Shown piece after piece: positions 36,439 to 47,860 of a stretch of DNA of 64,000 nt. This DNA is from a virus (Duplodnaviria; Caudoviricetes). A model generated the notes under the pieces. It worked only from the letters and a program-made list of their open reading frames with translations, made no database searches and had not been told where the DNA came from. How positions within the stretch are numbered: the stretch's first letter is position 1; each line of letters opens with the position of its first letter. A program made the translations under genes and the position numbers. The stretch lies in the IMG/VR virus record IMGVR_UViG_2636416124_000002, positions 1 to 64,000 of that record. One strand, 5' to 3'.

Positions 36439-36870
36439 TCAGGTGTTTTCCGCTTCCCAGGGAGCCCAGTCGGCCTGGTAGTCGGGGTGGTCGGCGTACA
36501 GGGCGGCGAAACAGCGGAGGGTGTACTCCAGTGCGGCCCGGTAGCCGCTGACGAAGATGGCGGGCGGGTAGACGCCCTGAACGTGGTCGGGGTGCGGCAA
36601 CGCTTCGTTCCGCACGGCGATGTCGTAGATGCCGATCAGCTGCCGTTTCGCTTCGACTTCCCGCAGGGTGCGGGCCGGGTCCTGGCGGGCAATGTGGGCT
36701 CCCTCGTCTGCCCAGGTGTGCCGCGCTACGGGAGCCCCGTCGCCGGCGAGAACAGTCGCCCCTTCCAGCCTCCAAGAGGCGCCGCCTTGTTCGCGGCTGG
36801 CCGCCTGCCGCGCCACCTGCTCGTCGTCGTCGAGCCGGGCCTTGAGGAAGGCCACCAAGTCGTCGGTCAT
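36439..36870 (-). CDS. DUF6221-like protein
   Basis: DLVAFLKARLDDDE...HIARQDPARTLREVEAKRQLI...LYADHPDYQADWAP. Confidence 0.75.
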   Translation of the reverse strand: MTDDLVAFLKARLDDDEQVARQAASREQGGASWRLEGATVLAGDGAPVARHTWADEGAHIARQDPARTLREVEAKRQLIGIYDIAVRNEALPHPDHVQGVYPPAIFVSGYRAALEYTLRCFAALYADHPDYQADWAPWEAENT

Positions 36871-37388
36871 GAGGACTCCTGGTTCTGCCGCCGCAGTTCG
36901 TCGAGCAGCGACGGGTTGACGATCCGGACGATGGTCTCAATGTCACGGTCTACGGCGGCAGGCCACAGGATGTCCCGGGCCGCCCGGTACTTGGAGGCCA
37001 GCCGGGTCCGCTGCTCCTCGGGCAGCTTGACCGCCCGGTCGGGGTGGCTGTTGTGCGCGTTGTCCGCGACCTTCAACAGAACCGCGTCACGGCCCCGCCC
37101 GGTGATGCGGGCCACCTTCTCCCCGTAGGGCACCCCGCGCTCGTTCGTGACCGCCTCCACCAGCGCGACCACGTGATCCGGGACCCCTGTCTCACGCAGC
37201 TGCTCAGCCGTCCAGTCGGTGTCCTCGATGACGTCGTGCAACAGCCCAGCCATCACCAGCTCGTCACCGAACGGGACCAGCCCGGCAGCCACCGCACGCA
37301 CGTGCTCGATGTACGGGACGCCGACCTTGTCCACCTGGCCGGCGTGCGCGGCCGAGGCCAGGGCGTCAACCTCGGCGACGGACTTCAT
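36867..37388 (-). CDS. HD-domain hydrolase of the RelA/SpoT (small alarmone hydrolase/Mesh1-like) type
   Basis: AHAGQVDK.GVPYIEH..AV, AGLLHDVIEDT, VEAVT, LKVADNAHN. Confidence 0.85.
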   Translation of the reverse strand: MKSVAEVDALASAAHAGQVDKVGVPYIEHVRAVAAGLVPFGDELVMAGLLHDVIEDTDWTAEQLRETGVPDHVVALVEAVTNERGVPYGEKVARITGRGRDAVLLKVADNAHNSHPDRAVKLPEEQRTRLASKYRAARDILWPAAVDRDIETIVRIVNPSLLDELRRQNQESS

Positions 37389-37627
37389 ACCTGCTCCTTC
37401 TCGGCCTGACTGGCGGCTCGCTCCCTGTCGATGCGGTCGGCGATCTTCCGTGCCCACTCGCGGCTGTACGGCGTGTGCTTGGCGATCGTCATGAGCGGAA
37501 CCCCGGCGGCCCTGGCGTCCGCAATCAGGTCGTCGAGGTTAGCCCGCGCTTTCTCGTGGGCGGAGGTTGCGCGGTCGAGGCGGCGGAGCCATGAGGCTTC
37601 GACGTCGGGTTCGGGGCGTGGCGTCAT
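37385..37627 (-). CDS. Small HTH regulator (could start as far up as 37711)
   Basis: NLDDLIADARAAGVPLMTIAKHTPYSREWARKI, resembling the C-terminus of 22332-22718. Confidence 0.65.
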   Translation of the reverse strand: MTPRPEPDVEASWLRRLDRATSAHEKARANLDDLIADARAAGVPLMTIAKHTPYSREWARKIADRIDRERAASQAEKEQV

Positions 37628-38161: not shown

Positions 38162-40308
38162 ATGACCGACACCCCGATGACCCCGGACCGCGAGCAGGAG
38201 ATCCGCACCTTGGACCTCCTGGAGCTGATGTCCGACCGTGCGGCTCCTGTGATCAGCGGCCACCTTGCCGCACTGCTCGGAGAGGTCGACCGGCTGCGTG
38301 CCCGGGTTGCCGAGCTGGACGACGCGAACGCCCAGTTGAACCAGCAGATCGCCGCCCAACGATCCACCGCCAAGCAACTCCTCGGGCGGGTCTCTGAGCT
38401 GACCGCCGCCCCGGTAGACGAGGCGGTCGAGATGGCCGAGGCGGAGGTGGAGCTGGAGGCCATGCGCCGCGAGCACCCCGCCCCGTGCAGGGTCCCCGAC
38501 TCCCCGGACTGCACCTGCCCGTCGACGGAGCGCCTCTTGGCCAGAGACGAGTTGAAGAAGGCGCTCCGTGGACACCTCTTCGGCGGCGGCACCCCGTGAC
38601 CCCGCCGCCCGCCCCGGCCCCGTTGCCGCCGTGGGAGGAAACCCTGGACGAGATCAAAGCCTGGGACCGGTACGTGTTCGACCGGGACTATGACAACAAC
38701 GACGAGGACTGACATGAACGAATACCCGCACCTCCCCGCCGAATGCCGTAACGGTCGCTGCGACCACGAACCCAACCGGTGCGTCCGCTACAGGTCTCGG
38801 CGTTGCCTCTCCGGCGAATGCACCCACGCCCGCCAAGACCTGATCTGCGCCGTGAACTACCCTGCCGGCGGCGATAAGCAGTGACCGCCCCGAACCCGAT
38901 GGGCTGCCGCTGGTGCGGTATCGACCGGCGGGAACACATGCAGCAGTGGAAGCCGCCCGCTGGCTGGCACCAGTGGACCCAGCCCACTCAAGACCAGATC
39001 AAGGACCGGATGCGTGCACGGCGGGTGGCCCGTCCGAAGCGCGTCCGGCACTCCGGGCCCGACACCAAGTTCTGCGTCCTCTGCCTGTCAGGGGAACACC
39101 AGCGCATCGACGAAGAGGAGTAGACCGATGGCCATTAAGAAGCCCCGGAAGCCGTGGCGGGTCATCGTCACCGGGCCGGACGTGAACGCCACCTCCGACC
39201 ACACCAGCGAGGACAACGCCTACACCCTGGTGCGTGCCGCGCTTGGCGGTGACAGCCCCGCTGAGCAGGCCCGCATCGAGTACTGGAAGGACGGCCAGTG
39301 GCGGTGGTTCGAGACCGTCACCGCCGACGAAATCCCCTGACCCACCCGCGAGGAGCAGACCGATGAGCGCACGCGACGACCTGACCACCTACGCCGCAAC
39401 CACCCGCACTATCACCGCTGACAGCATCGCCCCGTACATTGACGCCGTCGAGAAGGCCGCCTACGACCGGGCCATCGAAGCCGTCCGCGCCGAGTACCTG
39501 ACCGACGACACCAGCACCGCCGAAGACGAGGCGTACAACCAGGGAATCAGCGATTCCGTCGTCGCCATCCGAGACCTCAAGGAGTAGACCGATGAGCGAG
39601 CAGGGCACCCACTTCTGGTACATGAGCTTCTTCGCCCACAACTCGATCGGGCTCACCGCACAGGAGCGCAGCGGCCACTGGACCCGCCCCCGGCATGACT
39701 CGCATGGACGCCATGAACGAGCTGCGACGCCAAGTTGACGAAGCCTCGCCGCACCTGACTAACGCCGTGATGCTCAGCTTCGACATCCAGCTCAACCAAC
39801 TGCCCTGACCGTCCCTGGGCTGCCGTGTACGGCACGGCAGCCCACAACCCGAGGAGAACCCCATGCTCGCCGTCTCGGAACGCGTCCCCGGCTACGGACG
39901 TACCCCCGACCAGACCGTCTGGCACAAGCCCGCCGCTGGCCACCGGTGCACCGGGGAGTGCGACTTCCACCCCATCGCATGCAGCGAGGAGGAAGGGATC
40001 GTCTTCCCCGGCCCGAAGCAGGACGTCCCGATCCGACTGGACCAGGAGAACGAGGCGTGGTGCGCCGACTGCCTCAGCCTCCACCGCCAGCAGCAGCGGA
40101 CCACCACCCAGAAGCCCCCGCGATGATCCAGCACGGACAGACCGGCACCCCCGACAGCGACGTCGTCGTCACGAAGAAGGGCCACCCGCTCTACGCGCTC
40201 ACCGTGTCCAGAAACCGCATGGAGCGCTACAAACTCACCGAAGCCGACGTCAGCACCACCCGCGACGGGACGCCCCGCCGCACCGGATACGTCCTGGAGG
40301 ACACATGA
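38162..40308 (+). CDS. Array of small hypothetical genes: 38162-38599, 38596-38712, 38714-38884, 38881-39123, 39128-39340, 39363-39587, 39592-39809 (frameshift near 39688), 39863-40126, 40123-40308
   Basis: RBS motifs and coupled junctions; several products are Cys/His-rich. Confidence 0.65.
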
Positions 40309-40371
40309 GGACCTGCCCGGTGACGCAGAAAGGCCCCGTCCGGTAAGGTCGGGGCCAGGCGGTCATCTTCA

Positions 40372-40495
40372 GGATGGGTCCGGTTCGTCACCGGAACCGC
40401 CACTGTGCGGGAGATCCCGGTTCAAGTCCGGGCCAGTCGACTCAGTCGGCTAGTAGCTCAATGGCCAGAGCGTCCGCTCCTAACGAACCGCATCC
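40372..40495 (+). ncRNA. Circularly permuted tRNA-like RNA (YrlA/Y-RNA architecture, or a permuted tRNA gene)
   Basis: Order is GCGGG / AGAT / T arm CCCGG-TTCAAGT-CCGGG / CCAGTCG / linker ACTCAGT / CGGCTAG / TA / D arm GCTC-AATGGCCA-GAGC / G / TCCGC. The acceptor and anticodon stems pair. The flanks pair as CGGTTCGT:ACGAACCG and GGATG:CATCC. Confidence 0.8.
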
Positions 40496-41351
40496 CGGCC
40501 AGCCTTCAGCTCCATGGGCGTCATGGCCAGGTCGCGGTAGTACGTCATCGCGTGCCCCTGGAGCCGCTGTACCACCCGGTCCTGTTCGGGACCACTCAAT
40601 CCGTGACCGGCGGGCGCCGCGTTGAACCTTCGGCGGCTGACCGCCGTCGAGCTACGGTAGTCGCGAGCGATGGCCTCCGCCCACTGGGCGCGGGTGAGGG
40701 CACGCTGGACTCGCCCGTTGATCTCATGAGCCGACTCCTTCGTCACCGCCAACGTTGCCATGATCTCGGGCCAACCCAGCGTCGGCGGCATGTCGACCTT
40801 CGTGTACGTGAAAGGCCGCCCTGCGAGGCTCTCCCACCGTGTCACCGCTGCGGGCGACAGCCCTTTCCACCGGTCGATCAGCTTCTTGTTGACCTTTCCG
40901 GCTCCGTGCATCATCGCGTTGCGCCACGTCAAGCAGAAGCCCAGTAGCTCGTCTGCGACGGTCTCGGCTTTGCCGAAACGCAACGTCTCATGGAGTGCTG
41001 GCACCGGCCAGCCCCCGGAGCTGACTGCTTCGTGATCAAGGGCGGGAAATGCTGGCACTCAACGATCGTGCCCACACACAGTTCGATGTGCAGTGCCATG
41101 ACTTGAGGGATGGCGAGAACCGCCATGTCGGCCGCCGCCGAGCCGAAGATCTTTGTCGCGTCGGCGACCGTGACGTCGAGTCGCTCCGCCTGCGGCACCG
41201 CGTTCAGTATCGTGCTCGCCCTGATCTCGGGGTCTGGAGCCTGGTCCATATCCTGCTGGATGTGATGCGCCCCTACCGACAGGGCCAGGATGCTGTTGTT
41301 CGAGCGCTTCTGCATGGCCTGCCACGTCCGAAACGCGCTGTACTGGATCAA
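40480..41351 (-). CDS. Lower-GC accessory protein, candidate HEPN RNase (frameshift near 41050-41080)
   Basis: TTG start at 41351. An all-helical-looking sequence carries LTWRNAMMHG (R-x4-H). ORFs 40929-41351 and 40480-41058 overlap in different frames. Confidence 0.5.
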
Positions 41352-41411
41352 GTCGCCCCCTGGTTATCGGTGTTGGTACAGCCTAGTGCGCGTGACTCCG
41401 CGTACCCCCAC

Positions 41412-41501: not shown

Positions 41502-41669
41502 ATGCCAGGCCGACGACACACCGGCTTCAAATCCAAAGCACAGTGGAAGATGTTCTTCGCCAACCCCCGGCTCCGCCGCTACGCCCGCCAGAAAGCCCGC
41601 GCCACCAAGGGTGGAAAGATCACCCGCTACCGGCGGCTCCCCGCCCGCAAGGGCACCCGCCGTCGCTAA
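41502..41669 (+). CDS. 55-aa very basic protein
   Basis: GGAGGTGA RBS. MPGRRHTGFKSKAQWKMFFANPRLRRYARQKARATKGGKITRYRRLPARKGTRRR. Confidence 0.65.
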   Translation: MPGRRHTGFKSKAQWKMFFANPRLRRYARQKARATKGGKITRYRRLPARKGTRRR

Positions 41670-43357
41670 GCCGCCAACTCCGGACGCAAGCCCCCGCCCA
41701 CCAGCTCGTCCGGCTCCTCCGACTGGCCCTCATCGAAACCCGGCTCAATCCCGTCGTCCGGCCGTTCCTCGGCCAGCTCTCCGCCACCCGTGCTGAACGG
41801 ATCCCCGGCCGGAACCGCCGCAGCCTTGTCGTCCCGGATCCGCCGCACCTCCGCCAACACCTCCGCGTCCCCCCACGACGGCTCCCGCATCTTCACCTTC
41901 ATGAACGTCGAGATCGCCCCCGCCGACTCCAGCAACGACAACGACCGAGCCGTCGCCTCCGGATCCGGCTGCACCGCCTGCGGCCACGACGCCGTCAGCT
42001 CCGCCGCCGGGTCCACACCCTTCGCCCCGCAATGCGTCACGTCCACCCACATCAGGGTCGTCAGATGCTCCAGCAGCGCCGGACGCTGGTAGAGGATCTT
42101 CAGGCCCCGGGTCGTCAGCGACTCCTCCTTGCGGGCCGCCACCTCCGTGGCAGTCACCGCCACCGAGCCCTCCTCCCCATACGACTGGGCCGAGTAGCCG
42201 GCCGACGCCAGGATCTGACGGCGCAACGCCTTCGCCGTCCGCTCGTGATCCTCCACGCGGATCGCGAACTGCACCTCGGTGATCGAGTCCTTCATCGACT
42301 TGTCGTCGCCCAGGAACCCGGACACCGACACCAGCAGCTCCTTGTCCAGGTCGAACGACGCACCATTCCCCGGCCCGTTGGTGTCGAGCATCTCCTGCGG
42401 CACCACCACCCTGGCCTTCCCCAGGCGCAGGTCACGCATCCACGACGACCACGTCTCGTCCAGGCTGTCCATCATCGGTTCGATGCCCGCGTAGTCGCTG
42501 CGCCCGAGCGGCGCCGTGTCCGGCACCCCGTCCCACACCCGGTTCGGGAGGACGTTCGGCATGTGCGTGATCAGCAGCCGGTCGACCCCCGTCGCCTGCC
42601 GACCCTTGCCGTCGGTCCGGCTCGTCAGGAACTCGGTCTCGTGATGGTCCGCGAACCCCATCTGCATACCCAAAGTGCCGTGGTCACCCTTGTACACCCC
42701 GTACTCGATCAACCCAGGCGTGTGGTACTCCAACAGCCGCCACACACCCCCACCGTCATCCAGCGGCTCCAGCTCCCGCCACACCGTCGCCGCCGCCAAC
42801 ATCCCCCAACGCCACTCCGGCACCACCGCGTTCGCCTGGATCACATCCGACCACGGGCGCGGGCGCAGCGACGTGTCCCACACAGCCCGCAGGTACACGT
42901 TCGACAACCCGGCGGCCAACTCGGCGGCCTCACGCATCTTCGCGTGACCCCGGTCATCCAGGTACCGGCCGATCTGAGCCTGCGTGGTCTCCGCCGTCGC
43001 CTTGTCTGTCGAGTCCACGTCGACCGTCACCGTGGGGACGTCCGACCACAGCAGGTTCGCGGACATCTCCGCAATGTCCCCGCCTATGGGGACGTGGAGT
43101 TTCGCCGCCTGCTGGCCCGGCGACGGCTCCTGGCCCCAGAACATGCGCAGCTCATCACCGCCCACCGCCCGGCGCGCATCCACGTCGAAGAAGGCACGGG
43201 CGATGCCGTTCCGGGTGTAGCTCGCCGGCCCGCCGTACACCTGCGCCAAATGCCCGGGGTCACCGGCGTACCAGGCCCGCCACATGTCCATGTCGGCATG
43301 CGGGATCTCCAACTTCGGCGGGGGCCACGGGGTGTTCCCAGACGGAGGCAGCGGCAT
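41666..43357 (-). CDS. Phage portal protein (A118/SPP1-like)
   Basis: 563 aa, directly downstream of terL. WRAWYAGD, LGRSDYAGIEPMMDSLDETWSSWMRDLRLGKAR, TATEV motifs. Confidence 0.85.
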   Translation of the reverse strand: MPLPPSGNTPWPPPKLEIPHADMDMWRAWYAGDPGHLAQVYGGPASYTRNGIARAFFDVDARRAVGGDELRMFWGQEPSPGQQAAKLHVPIGGDIAEMSANLLWSDVPTVTVDVDSTDKATAETTQAQIGRYLDDRGHAKMREAAELAAGLSNVYLRAVWDTSLRPRPWSDVIQANAVVPEWRWGMLAAATVWRELEPLDDGGGVWRLLEYHTPGLIEYGVYKGDHGTLGMQMGFADHHETEFLTSRTDGKGRQATGVDRLLITHMPNVLPNRVWDGVPDTAPLGRSDYAGIEPMMDSLDETWSSWMRDLRLGKARVVVPQEMLDTNGPGNGASFDLDKELLVSVSGFLGDDKSMKDSITEVQFAIRVEDHERTAKALRRQILASAGYSAQSYGEEGSVAVTATEVAARKEESLTTRGLKILYQRPALLEHLTTLMWVDVTHCGAKGVDPAAELTASWPQAVQPDPEATARSLSLLESAGAISTFMKVKMREPSWGDAEVLAEVRRIRDDKAAAVPAGDPFSTGGGELAEERPDDGIEPGFDEGQSEEPDELVGGGLRPELAA

Positions 43358-43372
43358 GACGAATCCTTTCGA

Positions 43373-44629
43373 TCAGGCGGCCAGGGCGAGCTGGCGCTGC
43401 CACAGAGCACGAGTGGTAAATAGGGCATAGCGGGCCGAGTCAATTCCATGATCGGCAACCTTGATCGGACGGTCCTCGCCCTTCTCAGCCGCCTTGTCAT
43501 CCCAGGCGTAACCAGGCATCTCGCCGATCAAGCCCTTGCACGACGAATGAACGAGGAGCCTCCCCGACGCCAGAAGGCTCGCCATCGTGCGGATGCCGTC
43601 CAGCACGTCGTTCTTCGCAGGCGTCGGCGTCAGCTTGTCCCGGCGCAGCTGCGCGCTGAAGCTCGCCGCGGACGGGTCCACCGTCACGAACTGCGGGCGC
43701 ACCGGACCAATCCCCGGCACGTCACCAAGCCAGCCGCGCATCCGCTCCGAGTACTCGGCATCCGTCAACTGGCGGCGCTGATGGCGCCCGTCGTACCGCC
43801 ACTCCGACGCCACATACAGGCGCCGATCCGTCCCCAACCCCAGCAGCGTCGCGTGGAACGGGTTACTCGTTCCATAGTCAACGCCCACAGAAAGCCACCG
43901 GTGCATCCGCGGCAGAGTGCCGACAACATGACGCTCGTCATCCCACATGTCGAATACGGCCCCCTCGGCCGCGATCCACTTGCCCTCGATGAACCGCTTG
44001 AAGAAGAGCGTTCCCTCCCCATACTCGGCCTTAATCGACTCCGTGTATTCGAGAGTGAGAGACGGGTTGTCGTCGAGCGTGAAGTGCCAATGCCCGATGC
44101 CCAACTCAAGGGCCCTGTCAATGAAGTCCCGCTTCAACCAGTGCGCAGAGCTATCAGGGTTCGTTGTACCGAGCAGACGGGCGCCCGGCACAGAGAGCCG
44201 GCCGAGGAGCTGCTTGAAGAACGCCTCCGGGAGGAGGGTGATCTCGTCCGCTATGGCCAGGCACACGCTGGCCCCACGAAGCCTCCCCTCCGCTCGGGCA
44301 TCCGATGCGCCGATGAGGTGCACGGTCCGACCCAGGATGACCGCAGTGGTTGAGCCTCTGGTGTGGACCACGTGGAGGGACAGCGCCCCAAAAATCGCGG
44401 GGTCCTGCAGTGGCTCAATAAGGTTCCGCTCGATCGTCTGAAGTGATCGGCCAGCAATGATCACAAGGCCCGTAGAGGGAGCTACGGACAAAGCGATCAG
44501 GAAGGCAACCAGGGAGGCGATCGTCTTACCTGAACGAATTGCCCCCGACCAGATCGCAATCCGGTGCCGTGCAGACTGCGCAATAGACCGCAGCTGCTTA
44601 CGCGACATCGGAAGCGACGACAGGTTCAC
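43373..44629 (-). CDS. terL: Terminase large subunit, PBSX type
   Basis: GAIRSGKT, AIADEITL, GTTNPDS, VGVDYG, VDPSAASF, DHGIDSARY. Confidence 0.95.
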   Translation of the reverse strand: MNLSSLPMSRKQLRSIAQSARHRIAIWSGAIRSGKTIASLVAFLIALSVAPSTGLVIIAGRSLQTIERNLIEPLQDPAIFGALSLHVVHTRGSTTAVILGRTVHLIGASDARAEGRLRGASVCLAIADEITLLPEAFFKQLLGRLSVPGARLLGTTNPDSSAHWLKRDFIDRALELGIGHWHFTLDDNPSLTLEYTESIKAEYGEGTLFFKRFIEGKWIAAEGAVFDMWDDERHVVGTLPRMHRWLSVGVDYGTSNPFHATLLGLGTDRRLYVASEWRYDGRHQRRQLTDAEYSERMRGWLGDVPGIGPVRPQFVTVDPSAASFSAQLRRDKLTPTPAKNDVLDGIRTMASLLASGRLLVHSSCKGLIGEMPGYAWDDKAAEKGEDRPIKVADHGIDSARYALFTTRALWQRQLALAA

Positions 44630-46999: not shown

Positions 47000-47860
47000 A
47001 TGTCCGTCGCGCTGTTCAAGCCTCAGATCTGGTCCGCCCAGATCCTGGCCGGTCTGGACGAGGCACTCGTCTACGCGCAGCCCCAGATCGTCAACCGCGA
47101 CTACGAGGGCGAGATCACCTCGCAGGGCCAGTCGGTGCGGATCGTCACCATCGGCGACCCGTCGATTTTCCCGTACAAGTCCGGCGACACGATCAACTAC
47201 GAGGACATCGACACCGCCGGTCTGGACCTGCCCATCGACCAGGGCGACGCGTTCGCGTTCAAGCTCGACGACGTCGACAAGGCGCAAGTCGCCCTCAACC
47301 CGATGGCCAAGACCACCCAGCGCGCGGCCCGGAAGCTCGCCGCCCAGGCCGACCGGTACGTCGCCTCCCTGTACACCGGGGTCGCCCCGTCCAACGTCGT
47401 CGGCACCAGCGGTGCCCCCATCAACATCACGACGAACCCCAAGGACGCCTGGGACAAGGTCCTCATCCCACTCCGCACCAAGCTCAACCGGGCCAACGTC
47501 CCCGGCATGGACCGGTACGTCGTCGTGTCCCCCGAGTTCACCGGGGCGCTCCTTCAGGACGACCGGTTCGTCCGCGTCGACGCCTCCGGCAGCGAGCAGG
47601 GCCTCCGCAACGGCATCGTCGGCCGCGCCGCAGGCTTCGACGTCCTGGAGTCCAACGTCACCCCGAACCCGTCGTCGGACACCCAGGTCATCCAGGCCGG
47701 CTACCCCGGCGCCCTGACGTTCGTCGACCAGATCCTGGAGACCGAGGCACTGCGCCTGGAGTCGACGATCGCCGACGCCGTCCGTGGACTCCACGTGTAC
47801 GGCGCGAAGCTGGTCCGCCCCGAGGGCATCGCCGTCGCCTACGTCGACCCGTCCGCCTGA
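47000..47860 (+). CDS. Major capsid protein (P22-coat/N4-gp56-like)
   Basis: FKPQIWSAQIL...NRDYEGEI...GQSVRI...GIVGRAAGFDVLESN...VRGLHVYGAK. Confidence 0.9.
   Translation: MSVALFKPQIWSAQILAGLDEALVYAQPQIVNRDYEGEITSQGQSVRIVTIGDPSIFPYKSGDTINYEDIDTAGLDLPIDQGDAFAFKLDDVDKAQVALNPMAKTTQRAARKLAAQADRYVASLYTGVAPSNVVGTSGAPINITTNPKDAWDKVLIPLRTKLNRANVPGMDRYVVVSPEFTGALLQDDRFVRVDASGSEQGLRNGIVGRAAGFDVLESNVTPNPSSDTQVIQAGYPGALTFVDQILETEALRLESTIADAVRGLHVYGAKLVRPEGIAVAYVDPSA

What the first reader, a model, noticed from the sequence alone, without database searches (positions are those of the whole stretch)
40372..40495. Circularly permuted, anticodon-less tRNA mimic with no Ro/Rsr partner in view
Seen: the 3' half of a tRNA (40407-40440) precedes the 5' half (40447-40477), joined by ACTCAGT, so the acceptor stem (CGGCTAG:CCAGTCG, one G-U and one mismatch) is closed by a loop. 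Tertiary-contact residues are kept: U8, A14, G18-G19, A21, T54-T55-C56, A58, G53-C61 and an A15-U48 Levitt pair. The anticodon stem (TCCGC:GCGGG) opens into an internal loop and then 8-bp and 5-bp terminal helices. Known: this T-acceptor-D order is the architecture of bacterial YrlA Y RNAs, normally encoded beside Ro60/Rsr. True permuted tRNA genes are known from some algae and an archaeon. No Ro-like ORF is in this 64 kb. Inference: an orphan phage Y-like RNA acting as a decoy for host Rsr/PNPase, for tRNA-targeting defence nucleases or for tRNA sensors; or a permuted tRNA gene in a bacterial element.
Basis: partly seen in the sequence, partly recalled or inferred. Interest (0 to 1): 0.9.

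Follow-up and report, generated by a model that had tools for sequence, protein, structure and literature searches.

The report
tRNA-shaped RNA partnered with HEPN nuclease
The rearranged, anticodon-less tRNA look-alike is real, but it is not an orphan Y RNA: it is the small-RNA half of a conserved, mobile two-gene module whose other half is an uncharacterised HEPN-type (RNase-like) protein, most likely a toxin held in check by a tRNA-shaped RNA.

Summary
Observation confirmed. At 40407-40477 (+) the order is anticodon-stem 3' strand, 4-nt variable loop, T arm, closed acceptor hairpin, D arm, anticodon-stem 5' strand. The tRNA elbow residues are present. There is no anticodon loop and no Ro60/TROVE gene in the 82-kb record.

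The interpretation needs revision.
1. The RNA is longer, about 40357-40484. It has a conserved HrdB-type promoter and a conserved 5' three-helix domain.
2. It lies in a roughly 1.1-kb mosaic insert, convergent with a roughly 290-aa gene. That gene is split in this window by one missing base in a C run.
3. The protein has an invariant R-N-x3-H motif, and its predicted fold matches HEPN domains best.
4. The RNA accompanies the gene in 20 of 21 distinct loci. These range from Streptomyces prophages and islands to a metagenomic homologue 26% identical. In 20 aligned RNAs, 16 of 31 base pairs show compensatory changes.
5. It fails the YrlA criteria other than the tRNA-like domain.

Best reading (about 0.45): a type III-like toxin-antitoxin or abortive-infection pair, in which the RNA is an uncleavable tRNA mimic that restrains the nuclease. 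Core-only copies sit beside tRNA genes in Microbacterium and jumbo phages and may be decoys. Another first-stage note of this scan (e1-5916054) had proposed the HEPN pairing on this same DNA. No paper describing it was found.

The parts
40320..40349 (+). Predicted promoter of the small RNA. The -35-like GTGACG(C) is at 40320-40326, followed by a 17-nt spacer and the -10 TAAGGT at 40344-40349.
   Evidence: A TAnnnT hexamer lies 7-14 nt upstream of the first conserved RNA base in every locus. Most Streptomyces loci outside phages also have TTGAGN 17 nt upstream of it. The generic sigma-70 scan found nothing here. This is inference from conservation.
40332..40357 (.). GC-rich hairpin GGCCCCG...CGGGGCC that encloses the -10. 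On the minus strand it is followed by TTTCT, so it could terminate the minus-strand operon.
   Evidence: Sequence. It is conserved only in the phage-context loci L130, L205, L206 and L218. The terminator scan did not call it.
40357..40401 (+). 5' domain of the RNA, a three-way junction. P1 is GGCGGT 40358-40363 paired with ACCGCC 40396-40401. P2 is the hairpin CATC 40364-40367 / GATG 40373-40376. P3 is the hairpin CCGGT 40380-40384 / ACCGG 40390-40394, with a TTCRYNA loop.
   Evidence: 100% paired. Five of six P1 pairs and three of four P2 pairs show changes on both sides. RNAalifold predicts the same helices. In phage Percival this position is taken by the T arm and 3' acceptor strand of a real tRNA-Lys.
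40402..40406 (+). Conserved linker ACTGT between the 5' domain and the tRNA-like domain.
   Evidence: Nearly invariant in alignments A4 and A6.
40407..40477 (+). Permuted tRNA-like domain: anticodon-stem 3' strand, variable loop AGAT, T arm, closed acceptor hairpin, U8 A9, D arm, G26, anticodon-stem 5' strand.
   Evidence: The D stem is invariant. The T stem and anticodon stem show compensatory changes. The acceptor hairpin varies from 0 to about 12 bp.
40478..40484 (+). 3' tail TCCTAAC. It overlaps the stop codon (CTA 40480-40482 read on the + strand) of the convergent gene. The true 3' end of the RNA is unknown.
   Evidence: In distant relatives a 9-97 nt spacer, and in three of them a hairpin followed by a U-rich run, comes after the RNA instead.
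40480..41351 (-). HEPN-like gene of about 290 aa. In this window it is split into ORFs 40929-41351 and 40480-41058 by one base missing from a C run (CCCCC at 41012-41016 on the + strand; the relative L130 has six). The R-N-x3-H motif (WRNAMMHG) lies in the downstream ORF.
   Evidence: Intact homologue at L130:5999-6871. Motif invariant. Fold matches.
40320..41404 (.). Mosaic insert carrying the RNA gene and the HEPN-like gene, between the portal-side minus-strand genes and the plus-strand operon that ends at 40308.
   Evidence: Among 76 portal-related loci, only L130 aligns across this stretch. L129, L131-L133, L138, L142, L146 and L154 match on both sides but not inside it.

Best explanation
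The element is the small-RNA gene of a two-component module carried by Streptomyces prophages and genomic islands. The RNA is about 125-130 nt. A 5' three-helix domain is followed by a permuted, anticodon-less tRNA-like domain. It is transcribed from its own promoter, towards and up to the end of a roughly 290-aa HEPN-type RNase gene.

Proposed mechanism (inferred, not shown): the pair works like a type III toxin-antitoxin or abortive-infection system. The RNA binds the HEPN protein as a tRNA-shaped substrate mimic. Because it has no anticodon loop it cannot be cut, so it keeps the nuclease inactive. When the RNA is lost, for example through transcription shut-off or attack on it during infection by another phage, the nuclease is freed to cut cellular tRNA or other RNA.

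Shown here: the RNA structure and its covariation; the strict genomic coupling to the gene in a convergent arrangement; the conserved promoter-like hexamer; the conserved R-N-x3-H motif and HEPN-like predicted fold; and the mobile, sporadic distribution.

Inferred: expression of the RNA, toxicity of the protein, RNA-protein binding, tRNA as the target, and the direction of regulation.
For: Coupling:
- The RNA lies convergent to the gene in 16 of 17 distinct Streptomyces loci.
- It is also there in all 3 distant Streptomyces homologues with protein E-values near 1e-20.
- It is also there in a metagenomic homologue only 26% identical.
- In surveys of Streptomyces species genomes, strong RNA matches occurred in 2 of 151 and close protein homologues in the same 2 of 401.

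RNA:
- 99.4% of cells are paired and 16 of 31 pairs show compensatory changes.
- RNAalifold gives the same helices independently.
- A -10-like TAnnnT lies at a fixed distance upstream in all loci, and distant members have terminators after the RNA.

Protein:
- R144 is invariant and N145 and H149 are at least 90% conserved across 48 members at 19-58% identity.
- AF2 model mean pLDDT is 84.
- The twelve best VIA-align matches are all HEPN domains, Z 8.2-9.9, and lower rows include Csm6, AbiA, HepS and RnlA.
- Weak supporting hints: PADLOC RTasHEPN at E = 0.012 over the motif, and nearest ESM clusters named RiboL-PSP-HEPN at 0.87.

Mobility and context:
- The module is a 1.1-kb insert absent from most sister phages.
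- Neighbours elsewhere include Schlafen-AlbA_2, DEAD/ResIII, RES and SIR2_2 genes.

Precedent: the HEPN (Abi_2) toxin AbiF of C. difficile is neutralised by the ncRNA RCd22 through direct binding (bioRxiv 10.1101/2025.04.15.648962).
Against: - There is no expression, binding or toxicity data.
- HEPN assignment rests on fold and motif only. No Pfam or NCBIfam family matches, Foldseek found nothing, and Z near 10 lies within the range the tool warns can be generic for helical bundles.
- The layout is convergent. Known type III systems have the RNA upstream on the same strand, and the RNA is not repeated here.
- One locus (L220) has the gene without the RNA, which is unexpected if the RNA is an essential antitoxin. 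That contig is only 3.9 kb.
- In five RNAs the T-loop reads G55 and the D-loop lacks GG, so canonical tRNA elbow mimicry is not universal.
- In this window the gene carries a frameshift, so this copy of the module may be inactive.
Confidence: 0.45

Rival explanations
1. The same two-gene module, but the RNA is a sensor or co-factor rather than an inhibitor. It could be a tRNA-shaped bait that phage tRNA-directed enzymes modify or cut, which switches the nuclease on. Or it could be a scaffold that the protein needs in order to act.
For: The coupling and structure evidence is the same as for the best explanation. Strong conservation of the D arm and the T-loop/D-loop pair suggests the RNA must look like tRNA to some third party. 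One locus keeps the gene without the RNA (L220), which a toxin should not tolerate if the RNA were its only antidote.
Against: Nothing here separates activation from inhibition. Precedents for HEPN-RNA pairs outside CRISPR are inhibitory (AbiF/RCd22). The acceptor hairpin, a main handle for tRNA enzymes, is dispensable.
Confidence: 0.2
2. A cis-antisense (type I-like) regulator. Convergent transcription of the RNA across the 3' end of the HEPN mRNA controls that mRNA by duplex formation or transcriptional interference. The tRNA-like fold only stabilises the RNA.
For: In the close Streptomyces family the RNA body ends 2-3 nt from the stop codon, and no terminator is seen before the coding region.
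Against: In distant members 9-97 nt separate the RNA from the stop codon, and in three of them a hairpin followed by a U-rich run lies after the RNA, so overlap is not conserved. The elaborate, covarying structure and the invariant D arm are more than a stabiliser would need.
Confidence: 0.1
3. An orphan Y RNA (YrlA-type) that works with the host's Ro60/Rsr and PNPase, or titrates them.
For: The T-acceptor-D order is the same as in YrlA, with a weak Rfam YrlA match of 19 bits. Three of five host genomes carrying the module encode a TROVE protein elsewhere. Phage YrlA RNAs exist next to Ro60: 10 of the 11 motif-bearing viral loci found here have TROVE in the record (PMC4201824).
Against: No TROVE gene in the 82-kb record. 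No GNCGAA motif in any of the 20 RNAs. No basal stem formed by the 5' and 3' ends. The conserved neighbour is the HEPN-like gene, not Ro60. No TROVE was found in two of five host genomes.
Confidence: 0.04
4. A true circularly permuted or split tRNA gene. Its halves would be processed by RNase P and a 3' nuclease, given CCA, and used in translation or as an aminoacylated two-piece tRNA.
For: This window's copy has an 8-bp acceptor helix with G2:C71, G3:U70 and A73, resembling alanine identity. M. smegmatis YrlA with a 7-bp acceptor stem is cut by RNase P and receives CCA in vivo (PMC4201824). The Percival copy has ACCA in its loop.
Against: No anticodon loop can be formed from the flanks. The acceptor hairpin ranges from none (L229) or about 4 bp (L216) to about 12 bp, often with UUCG-type loops, and G3:U70 is not conserved. 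Neither RtcB nor any other ligase family was found in the record.
Confidence: 0.02
5. A decaying relic without function in this particular phage: a dead module, given the frameshifted gene.
For: One base is missing from a homopolymer run, which splits the gene.
Against: This copy of the RNA keeps every conserved helix and the canonical T and D loops, and scores 140 bits against the family model. A homopolymer-length difference may be an assembly error. A phage could also profit from keeping only the RNA.
Confidence: 0.1

Closest known systems
YrlA bacterial Y RNAs (Rfam RF02553; Chen et al. 2014, PMC4201824)
   Same: A permuted tRNA-like domain in the order T arm, closed acceptor stem, D arm, with conserved elbow residues and nearly invariant D and T stem sequences. 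YrlA also occurs in phages. The acceptor hairpin is of variable length in both.
   Different: No Ro60 gene, no GNCGAAN0-1G Ro-binding strand, and no basal stem joining the 5' and 3' ends. The score is 19 bits against a gathering score of 69. This RNA has a distinct 5' three-helix domain, and its conserved partner is a HEPN-like protein in convergent orientation.
AbiF / RCd22 (Abi_2 HEPN toxin with an ncRNA antitoxin; abiF RNA motif; bioRxiv 10.1101/2025.04.15.648962)
   Same: A prophage-borne HEPN-type toxin paired with a dedicated structured small RNA. In that system the RNA neutralises the protein by direct binding.
   Different: The protein matches no Abi_2 model (no Pfam match at all). The RNA is not the abiF motif (no Rfam match), is tRNA-shaped, and is convergent rather than upstream on the same strand. 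Nothing has been tested experimentally here.
Type III toxin-antitoxin systems (ToxIN, CptIN, TenpIN)
   Same: An endoribonuclease toxin with an RNA antitoxin, acting in abortive infection. Phages can escape by carrying antitoxin look-alikes.
   Different: Those antitoxins are tandem repeats upstream of the toxin and are processed by it, and the toxins are not HEPN. Here the RNA is a single tRNA-like copy and is convergent.
HEPN anticodon nucleases (PrrC, RloC, HepS of Gifsy-1; HEPN-MNT toxins)
   Same: The Rx4-6H motif and helical-bundle fold. HepS and HEPN-MNT toxins are among the structural matches. They are prophage- or island-borne, and tRNA is the substrate in several.
   Different: Those are controlled by proteins (EcoprrI, MNT, a phage tail-tip trigger), not by a dedicated RNA. 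There is no detectable sequence similarity.
Permuted tRNA genes of Cyanidioschyzon and split tRNAs of Nanoarchaeum
   Same: The 3' half is encoded before the 5' half.
   Different: Those yield functional tRNAs with anticodon loops, by splicing and ligation. Here there is no anticodon loop, and the acceptor stem is closed and dispensable.

Membership tests
YrlA / bacterial Y RNA | tRNA-like domain in the order T arm, closed acceptor, D arm | tested here: met
YrlA / bacterial Y RNA | Reaches the Rfam RF02553 gathering score (69 bits) | tested here: not met
   No match at gathering score. 19 bits, E = 0.16, over the core only.
YrlA / bacterial Y RNA | GNCGAAN0-1G motif on the 5' strand of the Ro60-binding helix (PMC4201824) | tested here: not met
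   Absent from all 20 aligned RNAs.
YrlA / bacterial Y RNA | Encoded within about 4 kb of a Ro60/TROVE gene on the same strand | tested here: not met
   No TROVE in the 82-kb record. As a control, true phage YrlA loci found here do have TROVE, 10 of 11.
YrlA / bacterial Y RNA | Long basal stem formed by the 5' and 3' ends | tested here: not met
   The proposed terminal helices are 72-75% paired with 0 compensatory pairs. Local P1-P3 are supported instead.
tRNA gene (normal or permuted) | Anticodon arm with a 7-nt loop, and a 7-bp acceptor stem with processable ends | tested here: not met
   ARAGORN finds none. There is no loop, and the acceptor varies from 0 to about 12 bp and is closed.
HEPN superfamily (the protein partner) | Conserved Rx4-6H motif with a polar residue after the R | tested here: met
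   R144 is invariant and N145 and H149 are at least 90% conserved in 48 diverse members.
HEPN superfamily (the protein partner) | HEPN helical-bundle fold | tested here: inconclusive
   The twelve best VIA-align matches are all HEPN domains at Z 8.2-9.9. Foldseek found nothing, and Z below 13 may be generic for helical bundles.
HEPN superfamily (the protein partner) | Match to a curated HEPN family model | tested here: not met
   No Pfam or NCBIfam match. PADLOC RTasHEPN at E = 0.012 only.
Type III toxin-antitoxin | RNA antitoxin made of tandem repeats upstream of the toxin on the same strand | tested here: not met
   The RNA is single-copy and convergent in all loci.
Type III toxin-antitoxin | The RNA binds the toxin and neutralises it | not testable with these tools
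   Needs co-expression, pull-down or a structure.
AbiF / abiF-motif system | Abi_2 domain protein plus the abiF RNA motif | tested here: not met
   No Pfam match and no Rfam match.

The most novel reading that the evidence does not exclude
A tRNA-shaped RNA antitoxin. It would be an uncleavable substrate mimic (a tRNA body without an anticodon loop) that restrains a tRNA-targeting HEPN nuclease of a previously unnamed family of about 240 clusters. Lytic phages (Percival, Gretchen, Floof and jumbo phages) would carry core-only copies in their tRNA clusters as counter-defence decoys. More broadly, permuted tRNA-like RNAs would be a general protein-partner scaffold well beyond Ro60. Partners or settings seen here are the HEPN-like protein, a DUF7873/SWIM/SNF2 locus, and orphan copies in phage tRNA arrays.
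Probability: 0.3. Interest if true: 0.9.

Novelty: new variant of a known kind. Interest (0 to 1): 0.78.

Why it matters
Permuted tRNA mimics have been known only as Ro60 partners (YrlA), and their function is still unsettled. This RNA shows the same architecture recruited by a different protein, a HEPN-type nuclease, in a compact mobile module. That offers a simple genetic handle on what the tRNA-like fold is for.

If the RNA is an antitoxin, it would be a substrate-mimic mode of nuclease control that I could not find described. It would add a family of about 240 protein clusters to the candidate defence systems of actinobacteria. It would also give a concrete reason for the unexplained tRNA-like genes that sit inside phage tRNA clusters. 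Separately, the covariance model built here finds RNAs that ARAGORN does not call as tRNAs and that do not reach Rfam's YrlA gathering score.

Tried and rejected
- attP or tRNA-fragment reading: rejected. The 5' half follows the 3' half with matching acceptor strands, lytic Microbacterium phages carry the element, and no duplicate of it exists in the record.
- The only ARAGORN tRNA in the record, tRNA-Met at 78075-78147 outside the window, is unrelated.
- RtcB link: suggested by Percival's RtcB gene about 1.8 kb away, but the own record has no RtcB.
- tblastn of the two ORF halves against 50,697 phage records: no match.
- Pfam on the neighbouring ORFs: only terminase. PHROGs: portal, major head protein and an HD hydrolase.
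- Foldseek against the PDB: nothing significant. Profile against PDB sequences: nothing.
- Promoter and terminator consensus scan of 39800-40800: nothing called.
- Relaxed ARAGORN run: noise only.
One contig could not be fetched.
- Genus survey starting from a locus id needed a genome handle first.
- Complex prediction was not used, because it takes no RNA.
- Literature searches for a tRNA-like RNA paired with HEPN, or a tRNA-like antitoxin, found none in the held library.

Full report
**1. The observation**

The window belongs to an 82,122-bp IMG/VR virus record rated complete. It is about 68% G+C. Its large terminase is about 60% identical to those of Streptomyces phages.

- GCGGG 40407-40411: anticodon-stem 3' strand.
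- AGAT 40412-40415: a 4-nt variable loop.
- T arm 40416-40432, with loop TTCAAGT.
- A closed acceptor hairpin 40433-40453, with G3:U70 and a C67.A6 mismatch.
- T8 A9 at 40454-40455.
- D arm 40456-40471, with loop AATGGCCA.
- G26 at 40472, then TCCGC 40473-40477.

ARAGORN finds no tRNA in the window. Rfam finds nothing at gathering scores. In E-value mode the only relevant match is YrlA, at 19 bits against a gathering score of 69, covering exactly the T-acceptor-D core. The whole record has no TROVE domain and no RtcB. Folding energy alone is unremarkable (z = -0.62). Whether this is more than chance therefore has to be answered by comparison with relatives.

**2. Relatives among phages: two kinds of permuted tRNA mimic**

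blastn against phage records hit only Microbacterium phages Percival and Gretchen, precisely over 40406-40475. A later search also found Floof. In these phages the element is unannotated. It starts 2-4 nt after a normal tRNA gene: tRNA-Lys in Percival and Gretchen, tRNA-His in Floof. The element is about 95% identical between Percival and Floof, while the upstream tRNA has been exchanged.

A pattern scan of viral contigs for a T loop followed by a D arm returned mostly ordinary tandem tRNAs. About 25 hits were stand-alone elements whose two acceptor strands pair at 6-7 of 7 positions and which ARAGORN does not call. They fall into two classes:
- Eleven carry extra conserved motifs, and 10 of these have a TROVE/Ro60 gene in the record. 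These are the phage YrlA RNAs of Chen et al. 2014 (PMC4201824).
- Twelve, including Percival and several complete jumbo-phage genomes, have neither the motifs nor TROVE.

None of those scanned reaches the Rfam YrlA gathering score.

**3. The turn: the element is part of an insert with a gene**

Seventy-six loci related through the portal protein were fetched. None contains the element in canonical form. blastn shows that 40320-41404 is missing from nearly all sister phages, although both flanks match. Only L130 aligns across it.

The insert holds the RNA plus a minus-strand gene. In the window that gene appears as two overlapping ORFs, 40929-41351 and 40480-41058. In L130 it is one 290-aa ORF. 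The difference is one base in a homopolymer: five C at 41012-41016 against six. This may be a real frameshift or an assembly error. An earlier first-stage note of this scan (e1-5916054) had pointed to the R-x4-H motif and the shift, and I tested both.

**4. The protein**

The protein has 31 close homologues, all in Streptomyces, at 51-100% identity. A full HMM search found 241 representative clusters at E <= 1e-3 and 169 at E <= 1e-10, typically 275-295 aa. No Pfam or NCBIfam family matches. PADLOC gives only RTasHEPN at E = 0.012, over the motif.

R144-N145-x3-H149 is invariant in the close set. Across 48 members at 19-58% identity, R144 is invariant and N145 and H149 are at least 90% conserved.

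The AlphaFold model is all-helical, with mean pLDDT 84 and pTM 0.80. Foldseek against the PDB found nothing. The exhaustive VIA-align search ranks HEPN domains in the first twelve places: HEPN toxins of HEPN-MNT pairs, SO_3166, the sacsin HEPN domain and others, at Z 8.2-9.9. Csm6, AbiA, HepS and RnlA follow further down. The tool warns that such Z values can be generic for helical bundles, so fold alone is inconclusive. The ESM Atlas's nearest named clusters are RiboL-PSP-HEPN at 0.87, which is a lead only. Taken together with the motif, I read the protein as a HEPN-type RNase of an unnamed family.

**5. The RNA travels with the gene**

Contigs were fetched for diverse homologues. They show the element convergent to the gene in 16 of 17 distinct Streptomyces loci. 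Its body ends 2-3 nt from the stop codon. The exception is L220, a 3.9-kb contig.

The contexts range from the portal-adjacent slot of prophages to islands with HTH_3, DEAD/ResIII and Schlafen-AlbA_2 genes.

The coupling also holds at greater distance:
- Three distant Streptomyces homologues (protein E near 1e-20) each have a full-length RNA match in the same convergent position.
- So does a metagenomic homologue only 26% identical.

In surveys of Streptomyces species genomes, the RNA was found strongly in 2 of 151. Close protein homologues were found in the same 2 of 401, and distant ones in 3 more. The module is therefore rare, sporadic and mobile.

**6. RNA structure**

The RNA is longer than the finding. 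A 5' domain precedes the tRNA-like domain:
- P1: 40358-40363 with 40396-40401.
- P2: hairpin 40364-40376.
- P3: hairpin 40380-40394, with a TTCRYNA loop.
- Linker ACTGT.

On an unfitted MAFFT alignment of 11 sequences my model is 95.7% paired, with 8 pairs changed on both sides. Their 3' strand is simply the antisense of the coding end.

On 20 sequences aligned to covariance model R1, 99.4% of cells pair. Sixteen of 31 pairs show changes on both sides, against no more than 5 for any slid control. That alignment is fitted to the model. However, RNAalifold on the unfitted alignment recovers P1, P2, P3, the anticodon stem, the T arm and the D arm by itself.

Other features:
- The D stem never varies.
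- The acceptor hairpin is the most variable part: absent in L229, about 4 bp in L216, up to about 12 bp in L214, and often capped by UUCG-type loops.
- T-loop G55 occurs only together with a D loop lacking GG. This affects five RNAs in two separate lineages. That looks like coupled change of the elbow contact. This is inference.

Every locus has a TAnnnT hexamer 7-14 nt upstream of the first conserved base. Most non-phage Streptomyces loci also have TTGAGN 17 nt before it. In the window this is TAAGGT at 40344-40349. Three distant members have a hairpin followed by a U-rich run 9-97 nt after the RNA. These features argue for an independent small-RNA gene, and against conserved antisense overlap.

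Model R1 aligns Percival's tRNA-Lys T arm and 3' acceptor strand onto the 5' domain. The 5' domain may therefore be a degenerate tRNA, and 'tRNA followed by permuted element' may be the ancestral layout. This is inference. Rfam's tRNA model does not match the 5' domain.

**7. What it is not**

YrlA membership fails on four criteria: the gathering score, the GNCGAA motif (absent in all 20 RNAs), Ro60 proximity, and the basal stem. Two of five host genomes with the module show no TROVE gene, and in the other three it lies on another contig.

A functional permuted tRNA is excluded by the missing anticodon loop and the dispensable acceptor stem.

The Ro-less phage copies, Percival included, lack the HEPN-like protein.

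**8. Mechanism**

The best-supported reading is a type III-like toxin-antitoxin or abortive-infection pair, in which a tRNA-shaped but uncleavable RNA restrains a HEPN RNase. The closest experimental precedent is AbiF/RCd22, a HEPN toxin neutralised by an ncRNA.

Expression, binding, toxicity and target are all inferred. Rivals are a bait or activator role, cis-antisense control, and a dead copy in this phage.

The core-only copies in lytic phages would make sense as decoys. Two other notes of this scan suggested decoy RNAs in phage tRNA spacers. I did not test those notes, and they are not evidence.

**9. Novelty**

No paper in the held library pairs a tRNA-like RNA with a HEPN protein or describes a tRNA-like antitoxin. 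I rate this a new variant of known kinds: a YrlA-type architecture combined with a HEPN-plus-RNA module.

Noticed in passing
L232:4090-4206 (-) = G023:C24:47089-47205; L233:3979-4089 (+) = G024:C25:57478-57588: A second, different permuted tRNA-like RNA on contigs of two Streptomyces genomes (variable loop AGAU, T arm, closed 8-bp acceptor, D arm GGUC/GGAC). It lies just downstream of a DUF7873 gene that follows SWIM zinc-finger and SNF2 helicase genes. No TROVE-family hit among the large flanking ORFs scanned.
   Followed up: partly
L017, L018/L098, L027, L031, L061/L120, L063, L114 (viral contigs up to 467 kb): Orphan permuted tRNA-like elements sit inside the tRNA arrays of large phages. 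ARAGORN does not call them, and the records have neither a TROVE gene nor the HEPN-like protein. Some are followed by an extra T-arm-like hairpin.
   Followed up: partly
L001:2924-3085 (Percival), L237:530-695 (Floof): In these Microbacterium phages the unannotated tRNA-like element is about 95% identical, while the tRNA gene directly upstream differs (Lys versus His). It lies near the right genome end, before an HNH endonuclease. Percival and Gretchen also have an RtcB-like ligase gene about 1.8 kb upstream.
   Followed up: partly
window 41666-44629 (-) and 47000-47860 (+): The portal (41666-43357) and large terminase (43373-44629) are on the minus strand. The major head protein (47000-47860) and the large downstream ORFs that follow it run on the plus strand, so the head module is split into divergent operons.
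   Followed up: no
window 36867-37457 (-): A protein resembling a metal-dependent (HD) phosphohydrolase, PHROG 990 at E = 3e-43.
   Followed up: no
G000:C1:78075-78147 (outside the window): The only tRNA that ARAGORN calls in the record is a tRNA-Met(CAT) with an irregular acceptor stem. It is unrelated to the element.
   Followed up: partly
L220 (Streptomyces sp. NPDC005899, 3.9-kb contig): The one locus where the HEPN-like gene is present but the RNA gene downstream is replaced by unrelated sequence containing a GC-rich hairpin.
   Followed up: no
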